This document shows, piece by piece, positions 42,001 to 57,000 of a DNA stretch of 64,000 bases. This stretch comes from Raja brachyura (Eukaryota). The stretch is taken from NCBI GenBank assembly GCA_963514005.1, contig OY740804.1, positions 4,960,001 through 5,024,000 of the forward strand, given 5' to 3'. How positions within the stretch are numbered: the first letter of the stretch is position 1; the number at the start of each line of letters is the position of its first letter. Made by a program: the position numbers.

Positions 42001-45000
42001 TCACTGACTGTATCACTTCGCGCTTGTTACATTCCACATCCCGCTTTCCCAGCTGATCTCCATCCTGTGGTAATTCTAGACAAACTTCGTCACAGTCCAC
42101 TGGAACAATAATTTTTCATTTTCAAAACGTGAATATCTTGACAGTAGTGTTTCAAATTTGAAGTGAAGAGTTGAAGCAGAGAGGAGAGGGTCAAACTCCA
42201 ATTAACCTCAACTGATTTCAGGTAAAAAGCCCCTTCTTCCAAACGCCAGCTTCCTGTTTTGCCCCTTGTCAACAACAATATGCCAAAACAAAAGTTCTAA
42301 TGATTATATTTTTGATCTGGCGGTCCACTTACAAAATCATCATGAGGGAATGATCCGGAATTGTACACACCTTAGACATGTCTACTCTTCTAAATGTCAT
42401 ATTTTATCCAATGTATCATTGTTTACATGAAGGGTCCCGACCCGAAACGTCACCTATCCATTTTCTCCACAGGTGCTGCCTGGCCCGCAGAGTTGCTCCT
42501 GCATTTGTTTTGTCTATCATTATTTCCACCACTGTTCAGTGTTAACAGACTCTGAGTACAGAGATAACCGCCGCTCCACCCTGACGGATACATCACACTT
42601 GACGAAGTGATTGAAGCAACTGCAATAACAACATGTAATGGGCACTTGGACAGGTCCATGTATAGGGAAGGTTTAGGGAGATATGGGTTGAATTTGGGGA
42701 AATTTGTCTAACATATGAGCATATTGGTCTATCGAGTTGTGGAGAAGGGCCTGTTTCCGTGCTGTATGACTCTGTGATCATCTGACCCAAACCATTTGTT
42801 AAATATAACCCTGAGCCTTTCACAATCCATCGTGTCGAGCTGCTGTTGGCTCGCTGTGGTTCAGGATCTGACGTCCTGTTCCCTTCTTCCTCATTGCTAT
42901 TTGAGAGATGCGGTTGTATCTGAGAGCTCAGAGCTGAGCGACAAGTAGACAAGTGCTGGCATTGTCACTATGGATAAAACAACGTGGATTCCCATTCTTC
43001 TCATCTCCTCGCTGCCCGGTGAGTGAAAGCCAGATGTTGATATTCCAATGATCAATGTTAGTTGGGGTCCCGTGCACCCTTTCCACAGCAGAGATGTGTA
43101 GACATGTAATGGGGGAAATGAAACCAGTGCATTGCGGTGATGGATCTGAAATCACATTTGAATATCTAGACCATGTTCGCAGTTTAATCACTGTTTACAC
43201 GTGGTCTAACTGCATGCTGATGATAGTTTAAATTGACAATAGAACCTGTCCCGTTGAGAAGCGGGACATTTGGCTCCAAATTCAGTTTAGTTTATTGTCA
43301 CGTGGACCGAGGAACAGTGTTTTTGTGGCGTGCAGAAAGACAATACATGACCACAATCGATCCTCATACAGTGCATAGATACATGAAAAGGAAAGTTAAA
43401 GCCAGCAAATTCTGATCAAGGGTAGACCGAGGCTCATCAAAGAGGCAGATAGGCGTTCAGCACTGATCTCTGGTTGTTGTAGGATGTTTCCGATCCCTGA
43501 TAACAGCTGCGAAGAAACTGTCCCCAAATCTGGCGGTGTGCGTTTTCACGCTCGTAACGCTCTCCGGTAACGGACCCGCTTTATTGTAACCCGTCCGTCC
43601 TCTGTCCTCAGTTGTAAATGCGGTGAATGTCTAAACACGGGTCCGGCCCAGTGTCGGTTGAGAGATGAATGTTGGCAGCGCAACCGGCGGCACCGTCAAT
43701 AAAATAGCAAAGTGGGGTCTTTCTGTGGGGTGAGAGGCCGGGCACCGCCTGGGATTGTTGAAAGGCAGCTCCTGCAACACTGCCGCGCTCCCTCAGTACC
43801 GCACTGCGATCCCAGCCCAGTTTCTGCTCAGGAATCTGGAGTGGGAAGTGAGCCCTAATTGTACTGACCCGGGGACAGAACACTGACACAACTGGTACAA
43901 TAACAGCACTGCCTGCACTTCAGACCGGAGACATTGTCCGTGATGCAATATGACACATCATGGAACGATTTAAGTTTTCTTTCATGTAATCTTCAAAATA
44001 TATATATTTCCATTAAACAGTTCATTTGCTCTCCATCTGAAAGTTTCTCCCCTCAGTTTCAGGTGCAGTGTGGGGAGAGAGGGAGGTAAGAGGAGTTGTG
44101 GGAAGAGCGATCACAATCGATTGTCACTATGCAGCAGAGTACCGCTCACACACAAAATACTGGTGTGATTGCAGGTGGAATCCGTGTGGAGTTTTAGTGG
44201 CAACAAATGGGCAACACGGACGGAGTGGAAGAGTGTCAATCACAGATAACCCGGCACGAGGAATATTTACTGTGACTGTGGAGGATCTTCACTCTGGACA
44301 CACGGGATGGTACAGATGTGGAATTACAACATCTGCCGGCCATCCAATATTTAACGTACATCTCCAAGTATCTGACGGTACGTTTCGAAACGATTGACTT
44401 GACGTCTCCACTGAAATGCCTGATCCGTGTTTCTCCGGGAAGGGTCAGGGCAGCACCGATATCCCGAGGCTCCGCAGCAGTGCAGAGACCTGCGGGGAGC
44501 GGGCGGGGGTCGGGAAACCCCACTCATGTTGCTCTCACCCAGTGCGGGCTCTGTCCCACTGAGCGGCCACCCACTTCAACTGGGACGCTCAGCACATTAC
44601 CCTCCCTCTGAAATATCACCCTGTCAGAGGTTTGCATTCCGACCCAAACTAATAATCCGACAGATCAGTGAGAAACAAGTCTTGCTCGCGGTCTGAATAG
44701 CCGGGGAATCATAAACATGGAATCAGTCCCCAGAGCTCAACAGACTGCGTTCAGTCCTCCCGGGGCAGGCCAGCCCGCTCCCCGCCCCCACCTCAGGGAT
44801 CAGTCACTCCGCCCCCACCACGCGCTCTGTCTCTGTCCCTCTGCCCCGTCAATGTGCCCCAATCCCCAGCAGCCACTGTCCACCCACCGCCCGGCAGTCA
44901 GCCTGCCTCTCCACCCCGACATTTCCCCGGTGGTAAGCAGAATGAACTCATTTTACGCCCCATCAGCCGTCGCACACAGCATATAATCCTCCAACATTTT

Positions 45001-54000: not shown

Positions 54001-57000
54001 GCTCCAGCTTATCATGACAACATCTCCCATTTGCTGTAAATTACACTGAAGAAACATTGCCTATAACTCCTTACATCGGACAAGCATGCTCTCTTGTTCA
54101 ACTGCAAGTGAAAAGCAATGAAATGATTTTTATTTCCTTGTTCCAACAGGACTTGAATATTCTTGTGAAACTTCGAAAAGATCCAAGTATACGTCAAGGT
54201 AAACTGTTCAAGAAGAAACTGCAGATGCTGGAAAATCGAAGGTAGACAAAAATGCTGGAGAAACTCCGCGGGTACGGCAGCATCTATGGAGCGAAGGAAA
54301 TAGGCAATGTATCGGGTGGAAACCCCTCTTCAGACTGATGGTGGGTCTGAAGAAGGGTTTCGGCCCAAAACGTTACCTATTTCCTTCACTCCATAGATGC
54401 TGCTGCACCCGCTGAGTTTCTGCAGCACTTTTGTCTACCTTCAAGGTTAACTACTCTGTTTCCAATGAAAGATGCCATGTACTAATTGCTGGTGTTTTGA
54501 TTGGGATTGCTTCAATTGAAAGAAAGTTGTATCTTCCGTTCACTGGCATTAAAGGCCAGTTGGAGTATTGAGTTGTATGCACAGTGGCACAGCCAGTGGG
54601 ACCACAGCCTCACAATGCCAAGACCCTGAACTTAGGTGCCGTTTATGTGTGTTCTGCATATTTTGCCTTTCATTGTGTAGGAATGAACAGCAGATGCTGG
54701 TTTAAACTGAATATAGACACAAACAACTGGAGTAACTCGTCGGGTCAGTCAGTGTCTCTGGAGAAATGGAATAGGTTGAGACCCTCCTTCAGAGTGAGAG
54801 TCAGGGGAAAGGGAAACAAGAGCGATATCAACGGTGGTATAGAAAGTTATAAAACAATGAATGAAAGATATGCAAAAAAGTAACAATGACCAAGGAAAAT
54901 ATCCATTGTTAGCTGTGGGCTAGGTGAAAACGGGTTGCACAGACAATATGACACTACAAGACAACAGTGAAATTCATACAACGACTAGGGTGGCGGAGAG
55001 ATGGAGAGAGAGGGGATGCAAGGGTCATTTAAAGTTAGAGAAATCGACATTTATACCATTGTGCAGTAAGTTGCCCAAGAGAAGTATGAGGTGCTGGTCC
55101 TCCAATTTGCATTTGTCCTCACTCTGACAATGTAGGAAGCCCAGGACGGAACGGTCAGTGTGGGAATGGGAGGGAGAGTTAAAGTGTTTAGCAACTGGGA
55201 GATCATATAGTGCCAGGAGGACTAAGCGTATGTGTTCAGTGAAATGGTCGCCCAGTCAACGTTTGGTCCTGCTGATGTATGAGAGTCCACACCTGATACA
55301 GTAGATGAGGTTAGAGGATGTTCAAATGAACTCTATCCCGAAAGGACAGTTGAGATCCTTTGACAGAGTCAAGGGAGGAGGTATAGGGACAGATGTTGCA
55401 TTTCCTATGGTTGAAGGGGAAGGTATTGGGGAGGGGGTGGTTTGGATGGGAGCGAATGAGATAACCAGGGAAGTATAGGTCATAATGTTATAAGGAATAG
55501 GAGTAGAATTGACCCATTCAGCAGGGTTGCAGAGGGAATGGTCTCCTGCTCTCCATCCGACACTCAACTGCACTGGGACAATCTCCAACATCCCCCTCCC
55601 CTTTCTCGATCTCATCGTCTTCACCAAAGGAGATAGACTATCGACTCATGTTTATTATAAACCTACTGACTCCCACAACTATCTAGACCACTCTTCTTCC
55701 CACAGGATTTGTGTGAATGTGGCTGATGGTCAGTGCAGACCTGAAGGACCAAATGGCCTGTTTCCATACTGTGTTTCTCTATGGATCCGATGAACCCAAA
55801 TATCAAGAAACATAACCAATGCCTTTGTACATATTTCAAGCCTGACATTAAAAGATAAATTTATCTCTCAAACATTCTTCTAAACAAGAGTTTAGAAGAA
55901 TGATGGGGGACCTCATTGAAACATACAGAATAATGAAAGGCTTGGATAGAGTGGATGTGGAGAGGATGTTTCCACCAGTTGGAGATTCTAGGACTAGAAG
56001 TTATAGCCTCAGAATGAGATGTTCTTTTATGAAGGAGATGAGGATAAATTCCTTTAGTCTGTGGGTGGTGAATCTATGGAATTCTTTGCCACAGAATTCT
56101 GTGGCGGCCAAGTCAGTGGATATTTTTAAGGCATAAGTAGCTAGATTCTTCATTAGTTCGGGTGTTAGAGGTTATGGGGAGAAGGCAGGACAATGGGGTT
56201 AGGCGGGAGAGATAGATCAGTCATGATTGAATGGCGGAGTAGACTTGATGGGCTAAATTCCCTAATTCTACTCCTATTGCTTATGACCTTATTCTATAAT
56301 AATATGTATATAACTTGCAAACCAGATATTAGTTAACTCACCAGAAGGGAAATTGCACTGGATTATATCTCATTGTGCTGTGTATATGCTTGGGTGATAA
56401 GAACAGATGACTCCATTTGTTGCCCTTCAGAGGGCATTCCCTGAGGTATTCACCAATGATATTCTCCCTTGCTAACCTCATCCCATGGTGTGAGATGAGT
56501 AAAGCTGCCAAACACAAGTATTGCTGCTTTGCCTTGCTGTGACCTGTTCTGGTGTGGTGCTGAGAGGAAAATGCACAGTGAATGTTGGTCTAAAACACCA
56601 CCTTTGATATCACGTATGGCAACACCTTGCAGAGTTGGTCAGTGTCTCAATGTCAGTCACTCCAACAGCAGGAGGTTTCTCCACCTAGAACATGACCCTA
56701 GACGCCATGGTGTTCTCCCTGCCGAGGTTGGAACAGGGTTGTAGAACCGTGTTCACAAAGTGGTGGCTTCAAGGATAGCTGCAAATATTTGGGTAAATCC
56801 CTCAGATACCACACCACTGCTGTACTGACGGGGGGCTTCATGCTGGCTGTCAGATATGAAAACTCCAACAACAGTGACATGATGGCACAGCGGTAGAGTT
56901 GCTCCCTTACTACTTGTGTTCGATCCTGACTACGGTTGCTGTCTTTAGAGTCTATTCGTTCTCTAGGTGACCACGTGAGTTTTCTCCAGGTGTCCCAGTT

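What the first reader, a model, noticed from the sequence alone, without database searches (positions are those of the whole stretch)
43630..54008. Ectodomain-limited gene conversion tract between the activating and inhibitory genes
Seen: introns from just before V1 to after C2 (about 21700-30970 vs 43630-54008) are near-identical. I count about 6 mismatches in the 315 bp after V1. Identity drops sharply outside the tract: the stalk exons differ at 10 of 49 nt, and the promoter region and intron 1 are visibly more diverged with indels. Known: Siglec-5/14, Siglec-11/16 and PILR pairs are homogenised this way. Inference: recent conversion or unequal crossover keeps ligand specificity matched while the tails stay distinct.
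Basis: partly seen in the sequence, partly recalled or inferred. Interest (0 to 1): 0.7.

Follow-up and report, generated by a model that had tools for sequence, protein, structure and literature searches.

The report
Homogenised ectodomain block in skate receptor pair
Two neighbouring immune-receptor genes of a skate, one with an inhibitory tail and one with a short tail, share a 9.3 kb block about 97% identical over all four antibody-like domains, yet the loop most likely to touch the ligand is completely different.

Summary
The window is skate-like DNA, not human. It carries tandem MDIR-type receptor genes, each with V-C2-V-C2 ectodomain exons. Gene A (20707-37612) has a short, tyrosine-free tail and Arg/Lys at the outer membrane edge. 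Gene B (42970-60215) has two canonical ITIMs. A 21687-30967 and B 43620-54007 differ at 312 of 8944 aligned sites (3.5%); flanks differ at 16.6%. The block has two internal edges, in intron 1 and intron 5. It lies inside an older 22 kb tandem duplicate that is 12-18% diverged. Interlocus gene conversion fits; one crossover, a fresh duplication or an assembly error do not. The functional inference is only partly supported. Introns differ by 2.9%, but the V1 and C2-1 exons by about 10%. The excess lies in sharp patches with high synonymous divergence. One patch replaces the V1 C-C' loop (20 of 33 nt), which lines the ligand cleft in CD300lf. Both loop versions occur in other skates. The scaffold is homogenised; the likely binding site is not. 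This is a new member of a known kind.

The parts
21687..30967 (+). Homogenised tract, copy in gene A: 3' part of intron 1, then V1, C2-1, V2 and C2-2 exons with their introns, and the first 1184 bp of intron 5
   Evidence: 3.49% mismatch inside against 16.64% outside. Intron mismatches are Poisson-like: mean 5.76 and variance 6.67 per 200 columns over 38 bins.
43620..54007 (+). Homogenised tract, copy in gene B
   Evidence: The B coordinate of the 5' edge was read off the alignment.
20707..20755 (+). Gene A leader exon (coding part), outside the tract; B counterpart 42970-43018
   Evidence: 4 of 49 nt differ.
22106..22426 (+). Gene A V1 exon (CD300/pIgR-like V domain); B counterpart 44057-44377
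   Evidence: Pfam V-set. PDB sequence search. Model pLDDT 92.8. CD300lf TM-score 0.92-0.94. 31 of 321 nt and 16 of 106 residues differ.
22214..22246 (+). V1 C-C' loop cassette, replaced between the copies; B counterpart 44165-44197
   Evidence: 20 of 33 nt differ. Codons 36-47 have pS 0.80 and pN 0.49. The B version matches clearnose-skate MDIR3 domain 1 at 15 of 17 residues. The A version matches thorny- and little-skate domains at 13 of 17.
22331..22408 (+). Second V1 cluster of differences (E-F loop, F and G strands); B counterpart 44282-44359
   Evidence: Exon positions 226-303. Codons 74-101 carry 8 non-synonymous and 2 synonymous differences. Strand assignment.
25848..26168 (+). Gene A C2-1 exon; B counterpart 48386-48706
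   Evidence: Pfam Ig_2/Ig_3. Like an FcRL5 domain. 32 of 321 nt and 18 of 106 residues differ.
25954..26133 (+). C2-1 divergent patch; B counterpart 48492-48671
   Evidence: 31 of 180 nt differ. Codons 35-92 have pS 0.254 and pN 0.159. The other 48 codons of the exon carry a single difference.
27637..27954 (+). Gene A V2 exon; B counterpart 50730-51047
   Evidence: 17 of 318 nt differ. At non-CpG sites the rate is 3.42%, not different from introns (p 0.13).
29463..29783 (+). Gene A C2-2 exon; B counterpart 52802-53122
   Evidence: 9 of 321 nt differ, at the intron rate. A and B are sisters in the exon tree, support 93.6.
31493..31541 (+). Gene A stalk exon, outside the tract; B counterpart 54150-54198
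   Evidence: 10 of 49 nt differ, counted by me on the alignments.
36853..36943 (+). Gene A membrane exon, with Lys and Arg at the outer edge of the hydrophobic stretch
   Evidence: 93.5% residue identity to clearnose-skate MDIR5 over the 31 residues aligned. No counterpart in gene B.
37565..37612 (+). Gene A last coding exon: 15 residues and a stop, no tyrosine
57486..57574 (+). Gene B membrane exon, with no charged residue in the hydrophobic stretch
   Evidence: No other copy in the window.
59505..59551 (+). Gene B cytoplasmic exon 1
59955..60215 (+). Gene B last exon: two canonical ITIMs (V-x-Y-x-x-V and S-x-Y-x-x-V) and a third tyrosine motif that has lost its -2 residue
   Evidence: 80.6% residue identity to the MDIR3 tail.
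8314..30967 (+). Older tandem unit 1: tail of an upstream A-type gene 'Z', intergenic DNA and the head of gene A. Interrupted by an insertion at 15146-20402.
31360..54007 (+). Older tandem unit 2: tail of gene A, intergenic DNA and the head of gene B. The first halves of the units are 83.6-88.4% identical.
45957..46538 (+). 582 bp present in B only, inside a LINE whose reverse-transcriptase frame is continuous in B. Best read as a deletion in A.
49906..50452 (+). 547 bp element in B only, with 34 bp terminal inverted repeats
52018..52275 (+). 258 bp repeat piece in B only, 99.2% identical to 39161-39418 and flanked by a 6 bp direct repeat
30205..30529 (+). 325 bp present in A only, with no other copy in the window
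30968..31358 (+). A-only insertions directly at the 3' edge of the tract. They include a second copy of the SINE-like element that ends the tract.

Best explanation
Shown: the window holds a tandem array of skate MDIR-type receptor genes. An old tandem duplication of a unit of about 22 kb produced gene A and gene B. Each unit holds the tail of one gene, intergenic DNA and the ectodomain of the next gene. Gene A has a V-C2-V-C2 head on a short, tyrosine-free tail, with Arg and Lys at the outer membrane edge. Gene B has a homologous head on a tail with ITIMs. The old duplicates are now 12-18% diverged at non-coding sites. Inferred: later, one non-reciprocal exchange between the misaligned direct repeats overwrote about 9.3 kb of one head with the other. 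This was interlocus gene conversion or an equivalent double exchange. The overwritten stretch runs from 419 bp upstream of V1 to 1184 bp downstream of C2-2. Since then the copies have gained about 3% point differences and private transposon indels. The homogenisation is not complete where it would matter for ligand binding. Short, sharp-edged patches in V1 (the C-C' loop, and the E-F/F/G region) and in the second half of C2-1 carry old or foreign sequence. These patches either escaped conversion because converted versions were selected against, or were written in afterwards from other family members by short-tract conversion. Inferred function: B would recruit phosphatases through its ITIMs. 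A would signal through a charged-residue adaptor. The pair shares its scaffold and its membrane-proximal domains D3-D4 but presents different binding-cleft loops on D1.
For: Family and gene models. The V exons hit Pfam V-set and the C2 exons hit Ig_2/Ig_3. The best homologues are skate and ray 'pIgR-like' proteins and clearnose-skate MDIR2, MDIR3 and MDIR5. The tail exons were found by tblastn with those proteins, and the splice sites are canonical.
Two-edged tract. 3.49% mismatch inside against 16.64% outside; chi-square 443 (fine grid) and 431 (coarse grid) against a shuffle maximum of 27.6 on the coarse grid.
Non-coding sites carry the signal. Introns differ at 222 of 7648 sites (2.90%). 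The spread is Poisson-like (variance/mean 1.16), which fits a single age.
Older collinear homology on both sides. The 5' part of intron 1 is 82.2% identical. Downstream pieces are 82.0% and 78.3%. The first halves of the units are 83.6%, 87.5% and 88.4%.
Spacing. The copies are about 21.95 kb apart while the tract is 9.3 kb, so this is not a fresh tandem duplicate.
Private indels show two real loci with separate histories since the event. One has terminal inverted repeats and one has a target-site repeat.
Tails group by type across species. A's membrane exon is 93.5% identical to MDIR5, and B's last exon is 80.6% identical to MDIR3. A's membrane exon matches nothing in B, and B's membrane and last exons match nothing else in the window.
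Patches. Exons differ at 6.95% against 2.90% in introns (Fisher p 3e-11). After CpG sites are removed, only V1 (7.96%) and C2-1 (8.25%) exceed the intron rate of 2.26%. Synonymous divergence in the patches is 0.80 and 0.25. Both C-C' loop versions are found in other skates.
Exon trees. C2-2 (support 93.6) and V2 (support 71.8) pair A with B. C2-1 and V1 do not.
Against: No DNA from other skates could be reached, so the expected switch of tree topology between tract introns and flanks was not tested. At the protein level the exon trees are weak. No A+B pairing is strongly supported. The alternatives for V1 and C2-1 are not rejected either (p-AU 0.118 and 0.467). A's V2 exon is closer to a little-skate domain (98 of 105 residues) than to B's V2 (96 of 105). 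So the age of the event relative to speciation is open. A 9.3 kb tract is long next to the roughly 2 kb Siglec-11/16 tract and the exon-sized Xenopus CEACAM tracts. The direction of conversion is unknown. Whether the patches were kept or imported is not settled. In C2-1 both copies carry many states that are rare among the 20 nearest domains, which also fits fast point substitution. A's signalling type is inferred, not shown. One assembly is the only source, and copy number was not verified with reads.
Confidence: 0.75

Rival explanations
1. Head-block duplication or exon shuffling. A young copy of the 9.3 kb ectodomain block was inserted next to an unrelated tail by a mechanism that does not depend on homology. 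It did not overwrite a pre-existing homologous head.
For: The heads are young and the tails are non-homologous. The 3' edge sits at a SINE-like element, with further A-only insertions beside it.
Against: Older homology continues collinearly on both sides of the tract. On the 5' side it covers the leader, the promoter and 11 kb of intergenic and tail sequence at 82-94%. On the 3' side it covers the stalk region at 78-82%. The recipient therefore already had a homologous head in that place, and replacing it is conversion by definition.
Confidence: 0.08
2. The patches arose after a complete homogenisation, by rapid point substitution under diversifying selection. This is how the binding face of Xenopus CEACAM pairs is described.
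For: V1 codons 74-101 carry 8 non-synonymous and 2 synonymous differences. All 16 residue differences in V1 lie in the C-C' hairpin, the E-F loop and the F and G strands. In C2-1 both copies carry states seen in 0-1 of the 20 nearest domains. The CEACAM precedent is in passages of PMC5112662.
Against: Synonymous divergence inside the patches (0.80 and 0.25) is far above the intron level of 0.029, while the rest of V1 and C2-1 is almost identical. The patch edges are sharp. Both C-C' loop versions already exist in other skate species. Point mutation may explain the second V1 cluster. It does not explain the C-C' cassette or most of the C2-1 patch.
Confidence: 0.15
3. Assembly artefact. One head was placed twice, or two haplotypes were laid in tandem.
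For: None beyond the general risk in repeated immune-gene clusters. Reads could not be examined.
Against: There are 312 mismatches, four private indels of 258-582 bp with transposon hallmarks, replaced exon patches, flanks 17% apart and tails that are not homologous.
Confidence: 0.03
4. Sequence constraint, not exchange, keeps the block alike.
For: The 227 bp before the start codon (94.3%) may owe part of their identity to constraint.
Against: The most alike sequence is intronic and includes LINE and SINE-like copies. The exons are the least alike part.
Confidence: 0.02

Closest known systems
Clearnose-skate modular domain immune-type receptors MDIR3 and MDIR5
   Same: CD300/pIgR-like V domains alternate with C2 domains. 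Gene A has the MDIR5 architecture (V-C2-V-C2) and its stalk, membrane and tail exons. Gene B has the ITIM tail of MDIR3. The family is described as a multigene family of activating and inhibitory receptors (passages of PMC3031540).
   Different: MDIR3 has five domains and gene B has four. The species differs: the best exon identities are 83-93%. The genomic arrangement and any conversion were not in the texts I could read. The original paper is not held.
Siglec-11/Siglec-16 (and Siglec-5/14) paired receptors
   Same: The genes are neighbours, one inhibitory and one activating. Their ectodomain-coding regions are homogenised by gene conversion while the tails stay distinct. Converted regions are fragmented (abstract and passages of PMC5701461).
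   Different: The converted part there is about 2 kb and includes the upstream region and the ligand-binding V exon. Here it is 9.3 kb, excludes the leader and promoter, and the V1 binding loop is the part that is not shared.
Xenopus and mammalian CEACAM paired receptors
   Same: Conversion occurs between ITIM and activating members. Differences re-accumulate on the CC'C''FG face (passages of PMC5112662).
   Different: [quoted passage not shown] Here the introns are homogenised and the exon patches carry high synonymous divergence. The CEACAM authors stress opposite gene orientation; A and B are direct repeats.
Primate L/M opsin genes
   Same: Tandem paralogues whose introns are homogenised by conversion while functionally decisive exons stay more diverged than the introns. 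This is read as selection against homogenisation (abstract of PMC3213168).
   Different: A different gene family, with known tuning sites. Here the functional role of the patches is only inferred from a structural relative.
Mouse CD300lf V domain
   Same: It is the best structural match to the V1 model (TM-score 0.92-0.94, 37-38% identity) and has the same extra C-C' disulfide. In CD300lf the ligand cleft lies between the CDR3 and C-C' loops, and swapping the C-C' loop abolishes binding (passages of PMC6166816).
   Different: CD300lf has a single V domain. No ligand is known for the skate proteins.

Membership tests
MDIR family (skate modular domain immune-type receptors) | CD300/pIgR/TREM-like V domain with an extra C-C' disulfide | tested here: met
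   PDB sequence search: pIgR and CD300 chains, E 1e-15 to 1e-50. The model has pLDDT 92.8. CD300lf TM-score 0.92-0.94. The two Cys flanking the loop are invariant in the alignment.
MDIR family (skate modular domain immune-type receptors) | Modular mix of V and C2/I-set domains in one ectodomain | tested here: met
   V-C2-V-C2 exon order in both genes.
MDIR family (skate modular domain immune-type receptors) | Sequence kinship with the cDNA-derived MDIR proteins in both ectodomain and tail | tested here: met
   MDIR2, MDIR3 and MDIR5 are among the hits. A's membrane exon is 93.5% identical to MDIR5, and B's last exon is 80.6% identical to MDIR3.
Paired activating/inhibitory receptors | The inhibitory member carries ITIMs | tested here: met
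   Two motifs fit (S/I/V/L)xYxx(I/V/L) in B's last exon. The consensus is as quoted in PMC5112662. Phosphatase recruitment was not tested.
Paired activating/inhibitory receptors | The activating member has a charged membrane residue and a short tail, and couples to an ITAM adaptor | tested here: inconclusive
   The tail after the membrane segment is about 20 residues, ends in a stop and has no tyrosine. Arg and Lys sit at the outer edge of the hydrophobic stretch, not in its middle. Adaptor binding cannot be tested here. As I recall the original abstract, MDIR5 was said to lack characteristic motifs.
Paired activating/inhibitory receptors | Closely similar ectodomains | tested here: met
   375 of 423 residues are identical over the four Ig exons, translated one by one.
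Paired activating/inhibitory receptors | Shared ligand and co-expression | not testable with these tools
   No ligand or expression data. The replaced C-C' loop argues against identical binding at D1.
Interlocus gene-conversion tract | A block of young sequence with two internal edges inside older paralogous homology | tested here: met
Interlocus gene-conversion tract | The signal is carried by non-coding sites | tested here: met
   Introns differ at 2.90% (222 of 7648) against flanks at 16.6%.
Interlocus gene-conversion tract | Tree switch across species: paralogues pair within the species inside the tract, and by type outside it | tested here: inconclusive
   Outside the tract, the tail exons pair with MDIR5-type or MDIR3-type proteins of other species. 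Inside the tract, only protein exon trees were possible. C2-2 pairs A with B (93.6) and V2 does so weakly (71.8). C2-1 and V1 do not pair, though the pairing is not rejected. Intron trees need skate DNA, which no open collection holds.
Selection against homogenisation (L/M-opsin type) | Exons more diverged than the neighbouring introns, synonymous sites included | tested here: met
   True for V1 and C2-1 only.
Selection against homogenisation (L/M-opsin type) | The diverged sites are the functionally decisive ones | not testable with these tools
   Inferred from CD300lf only.

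The most novel reading that the evidence does not exclude
In this skate MDIR pair, conversion homogenises the whole ectodomain scaffold, introns included. The binding-cleft cassette of D1 (the C-C' loop) and a D2 patch are kept different, or are swapped in from a pool of paralogues as ready-made modules. Under this reading selection works against matching exactly at the ligand site. The short-tailed and ITIM-bearing partners would then be tuned to different ligands or affinities, and germline cassette exchange would diversify an innate receptor family in a cartilaginous fish.
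Probability: 0.3. Interest if true: 0.65.

Novelty: new member of a known kind. Interest (0 to 1): 0.45.

Why it matters
Homogenisation of ectodomains between inhibitory and activating neighbours is well documented in mammals and frogs. My searches of the held library turned up no description of it for skate MDIRs and none for cartilaginous fish. This locus would place the mechanism in the oldest jawed-vertebrate lineage. It also shows a clean inverse pattern: introns alike, binding-loop exon patches unlike. That pattern separates two ideas that are usually merged. Conversion keeps a pair similar, but it need not keep their binding sites the same. The sharp C-C' cassette gives a direct loop-swap experiment.

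Tried and rejected
Pfam scans of all 275 open frames of 70 or more residues found only the eight Ig exons plus transposon domains. No further receptor exon lies in 1-8300 or 60300-64000.

The tRNA scan and the Rfam gathering scan found nothing.

I looked for an in-window donor of the A-type C-C' cassette. By my own count on the sequences, the V2 exons match it at only about 73% (24 of 33 nt). No donor is in the window.

Exon protein trees with 68 V and 57 C2 domains from the 26 proteins of four skate species were too short (about 106 columns) to decide. The other 94 of the 120 homologues were left out of the trees, and only blastp matches of 95 or more aligned residues were kept.

The excess in V2 (p 0.013) disappeared once CpG sites were set aside. 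I do not count V2 as a patch.

The original MDIR paper and a review by the same group are not held.

No skate genomic DNA is reachable. Genome contigs holds bacteria and archaea only. The BLAST collections are phages, plasmids and E. coli. So GENECONV/RDP with outgroups and per-segment DNA trees stayed undone.

Every search, fold, tree and substitution count was done exon by exon.

The N run at 484-612 was left as it is. The window reads as skate DNA; nothing in it was taken for human.

Full report
What the window is. Base composition, LINE-type reverse-transcriptase and endonuclease frames, and Ig exons point to a vertebrate locus. The V exon of the first gene finds its best relatives in skates and rays: Amblyraja, Leucoraja, Rhinoraja, Pristis and Hemitrygon proteins named 'polymeric immunoglobulin receptor-like'. 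It also finds the clearnose-skate modular domain immune-type receptors MDIR2, MDIR3 and MDIR5, at 75-83% identity for the closest. The window is therefore skate-like DNA, and nothing in it was taken for human. The N run at 484-612 was left alone.

Gene models. Pfam finds four Ig exons per gene in the order V, C2, V, C2. The V domains resemble pIgR and CD300. The C2 domains resemble an FcRL5 domain. tblastn with the 120 homologues adds the leader, stalk, membrane and tail exons. Splice junctions were placed from the cDNA-derived MDIR sequences and from canonical AG/GT sites.
- Gene A: leader 20707-20755, V1 22106-22426, C2-1 25848-26168, V2 27637-27954, C2-2 29463-29783, stalk 31493-31541, membrane exon 36853-36943, last exon 37565-37612.
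- A's membrane exon is 93.5% identical to MDIR5. It has Lys and Arg at the outer edge of the hydrophobic stretch. The tail is about 20 residues and has no tyrosine.
- Gene B: leader 42970-43018, V1 44057-44377, C2-1 48386-48706, V2 50730-51047, C2-2 52802-53122, stalk 54150-54198, membrane exon 57486-57574, cytoplasmic exons 59505-59551 and 59955-60215.
- B's last exon is 80.6% identical to the MDIR3 tail. It holds two canonical ITIMs and a third tyrosine motif whose -2 residue was lost with a five-codon deletion.
- All these exons are open and have canonical splice sites.
- Calling A 'activating' is an inference. As I recall the abstract of the original MDIR paper (not held), MDIR5 was said to lack characteristic signalling motifs.

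The observation. Self-BLAST shows collinear similarity of 20402-30967 with 42663-54007 at 88-97%. In a global alignment, identity per 250 columns is 81-82% across A 20803-21623. It jumps to 94.4% in the window starting at 21624 and stays at 95-99.6% to 30739. The exceptions are the two windows holding the V1 and C2-1 exon patches (88.4% and 87.6%). The last window, which straddles the 3' edge at 30967, is 90.0%. A two-breakpoint maximum chi-square scan places the edges at A 21687 and at the 30967/31359 junction. Mismatch is 312 of 8944 inside and 256 of 1538 outside. The chi-square is 443 (fine grid; 431 on the coarse grid), while the largest value in 1000 column shuffles, on the coarse grid, was 27.6. 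Its 10 of 49 in the stalk exons is exact by my own count on the alignments. Beyond the 3' edge, A carries about 390 bp of private insertions. Homology then resumes at 82.0% and 78.3%.

The older frame. The tract sits in an older tandem repeat with a period of about 22 kb. Unit 1 runs 8314-30967 and unit 2 runs 31360-54007. A third unit begins at 54008. The first half of each unit holds the tail of the upstream gene and the intergenic DNA. These halves are 83.6% (984 columns), 87.5% (2062) and 88.4% (1721) identical between units 1 and 2. Unit 1 begins with the intact stalk, membrane and last exons of a further A-type gene, 'Z' (8472-8520, 10308-10398, about 11015). No Ig exons of Z lie in the LINE-rich first 8 kb. 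In this old part the exons are better kept than the introns on the whole: the stalk exon matches at 46 of 49 nt and the membrane exon at about 86 of 94, against 83.6-87.5% over the pieces as wholes, although the 200 bp upstream of the membrane exon are about as well kept (90.5%) as the exon itself (91.5%). Beyond the stalk region, B's tail has no counterpart in units 1 and 2.

Why conversion. The young block is 9.3 kb long, but the copies are 21.95 kb apart. A fresh tandem duplication would have made the whole period alike. A single unequal crossover would leave only one edge. Constraint cannot explain it, because the most alike sequence is intronic and includes LINE and SINE-like copies. Older collinear homology continues on both sides, so the recipient already had a homologous head, and that head was overwritten. 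Intron mismatches are spread as a Poisson process would spread them (mean 5.76, variance 6.67 per 200 columns, 38 bins). This fits one event, or several of the same age. Since then the copies have gone separate ways. B gained a 547 bp element with 34 bp terminal inverted repeats. B also gained a 258 bp repeat piece that is 99.2% identical to another copy and is flanked by a 6 bp repeat. A lost 582 bp from inside a LINE whose frame is continuous in B. A also has a private 325 bp stretch. These indels, the 312 mismatches and the unrelated tails argue against an assembly artefact, though reads could not be examined. The 3' edge coincides with the end of a SINE-like copy and with A-only insertions. 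A heterology that stopped the exchange is a possible reason for the edge, but this is not shown.

The unexpected part. Inside the tract the exons are less alike than the introns: 89 of 1281 sites against 222 of 7648 (Fisher p 3e-11). With CpG-context sites set aside, V2 (3.42%) and C2-2 (2.61%) match the intron rate of 2.26%. V1 (7.96%) and C2-1 (8.25%) do not (p 2.6e-7 and 7.5e-8). The excess is confined to patches with sharp edges.
- V1 codons 36-47 differ at 20 of 33 nt (pS 0.80, pN 0.49).
- V1 codons 74-101 carry 8 non-synonymous and 2 synonymous differences.
- C2-1 codons 35-92 have pS 0.254 and pN 0.159.
- The remaining 114 codons of these two exons carry two differences in all.
Synonymous divergence at or above the flank level rules out new point mutations as the main source of the C-C' cassette and of most of the C2-1 patch.

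Both versions of the C-C' loop exist in other skates. The B version matches MDIR3 domain 1 at 15 of 17 residues. Among 175 loops found in the 120 homologues, it occurs only in MDIR3 and MDIR5. The A version matches thorny- and little-skate domains at 13 of 17. A and B share an Ala just after the patch. Among the other 70 V domains listed, that Ala accompanies only the three B-type clearnose-skate loops and one Rhinoraja domain with a loop of another type. This hints that A's cassette was written into a B-type domain, but it is only a hint. In the C2-1 patch each copy is closer to a domain of another species (44 and 47 of 57 residues) than to its partner (40 of 57). Both copies also carry rare states.

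Trees, exon by exon. I used 68 V and 57 C2 domains from the 26 proteins of four skate species. The other 94 of the 120 homologues were left out, and only matches of 95 or more aligned residues were kept.
- C2-2 pairs A with B (support 93.6).
- V2 pairs them weakly (71.8).
- C2-1 does not pair them. Forcing the pair costs 2.1 log-likelihood units (p-AU 0.467).
- V1 places B beside the clearnose-skate MDIR3/MDIR5 domains in the first tree (support 94). Forcing A with B costs 18.6 units (p-AU 0.118). With the twelve loop columns removed the cost is only 0.57 units.
None of this is decisive on about 106 columns. It does agree with the mosaic seen in the DNA.

What the patch does, by inference. The V1 exon of A was folded with a 17-row alignment and gives a confident V domain (pLDDT 92.8). 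Its best structural matches are mouse CD300lf chains (TM-score 0.92-0.94). All 16 residue differences between A and B lie in the C-C' hairpin, the E-F loop and the F and G strands. None lies in strands A, B, D or E or in the first loop. In CD300lf the ligand cleft lies between the CDR3 and C-C' loops, above the extra disulfide. Exchanging the C-C' loop abolishes binding of its viral ligand (passages of PMC6166816). The cassette that differs between A and B lies between the two cysteines of that same disulfide. The pair therefore most likely does not present the same binding site on D1, while D3 and D4 are nearly the same.

Comparison with known cases. Conversion limited to ectodomains of paired receptors is established for Siglec-11/16. 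There it covers about 2 kb, includes the upstream region and the V exon, and is fragmented (abstract and passages of PMC5701461). It is also established for CEACAM pairs. In Xenopus the tract is confined to the N exon, the flanking introns are diverged and synonymous changes are absent (passages of PMC5112662). The present tract is longer, excludes the leader and promoter, and shows the opposite exon/intron contrast. That contrast matches the primate L/M opsin genes, where introns are homogenised and the tuning exons stay apart. It is read there as selection against homogenisation (abstract of PMC3213168). MDIRs are described as a multigene family of activating and inhibitory receptors of the clearnose skate (passages of PMC3031540). 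My library searches found no paper describing conversion between MDIR genes or in cartilaginous fish. The library lacks most subscription journals, and supplements were closed.

Verdict. The mechanism, interlocus conversion within an older tandem duplicate, is the best reading at a confidence of about 0.75. The claim that it keeps ligand specificity matched is not supported for the membrane-distal domains. This is a new member of a known kind. Its noteworthy twist is that the binding-cleft cassette is the part left out of the homogenisation. Still unchecked: intron trees across skate species, read-level support for two copies, expression, ligands and adaptors.

Noticed in passing
window 8314-11062: Intact stalk (8472-8520), membrane (10308-10398) and last (about 11015) exons of a further short-tailed MDIR gene 'Z'. 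No Ig exons lie upstream of them within the window. Z's head is either beyond the window start, past about 8 kb of LINE-rich, AT-rich DNA, or has been lost.
   Followed up: partly
window 15146-20402: A 5.2 kb stretch present upstream of gene A but not of gene B. It holds a partial extra copy of the A-type membrane exon (16347-16409), a copy of the last exon (about 17255) and a LINE fragment with a reverse-transcriptase frame (19070-19504).
   Followed up: partly
window 60891-60971: An open stretch 85% identical to residues 2-28 of a thorny-skate gene model (P0042). It is probably a 5' exon of the next MDIR gene downstream of B. No homologue of it lies upstream of A or B.
   Followed up: partly
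window 49906-50452: A 547 bp element with 34 bp terminal inverted repeats, present in B's intron 3 and absent from A. It looks like a small DNA transposon inserted after the homogenisation.
   Followed up: partly
window 52018-52275 and 39161-39418: Two copies of a LINE 3'-end repeat that are 99.2% identical. The copy in B's intron 4 is flanked by a 6 bp direct repeat. The family seems to have been active recently. Older copies lie at 6578-6956, 12179-12539, 20027-20403, 23352-23729, 32404-32775 and 45296-45673.
   Followed up: partly
window 54205-54438: A 234 bp repeat inserted immediately after the splice donor of B's stalk exon. It duplicates the donor-site sequence, so a second donor-like site lies 240 bp downstream.
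   Followed up: no
window 59955-60215: The first tyrosine motif of B's tail lacks the -2 Ile that homologues have. A five-codon deletion removed it, so B keeps two rather than three canonical ITIMs.
   Followed up: partly
window 22106-22426 vs 27637-27954, and 25848-26168 vs 29463-29783: Within each gene the V-C2 pair is itself an older internal duplication. The V exons are about 85-87% identical and the C2 exons about 74-77% identical, in all A/B combinations. This duplication predates the A/B homogenisation.
   Followed up: partly
window 26550-27209 and 49157-49516: An open frame in intron 3 hits the Pfam model ALKBH8_N (E 4.7e-18 in A). I take it for the tail of a CR1-type LINE. It is shared by both copies and so was carried along with the tract.
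   Followed up: no
window 770-5280, minus strand: Two or more decayed LINE copies with endonuclease and reverse-transcriptase frames in 28-34% GC DNA. They lie next to the 129 bp N run at 484-612.
   Followed up: no
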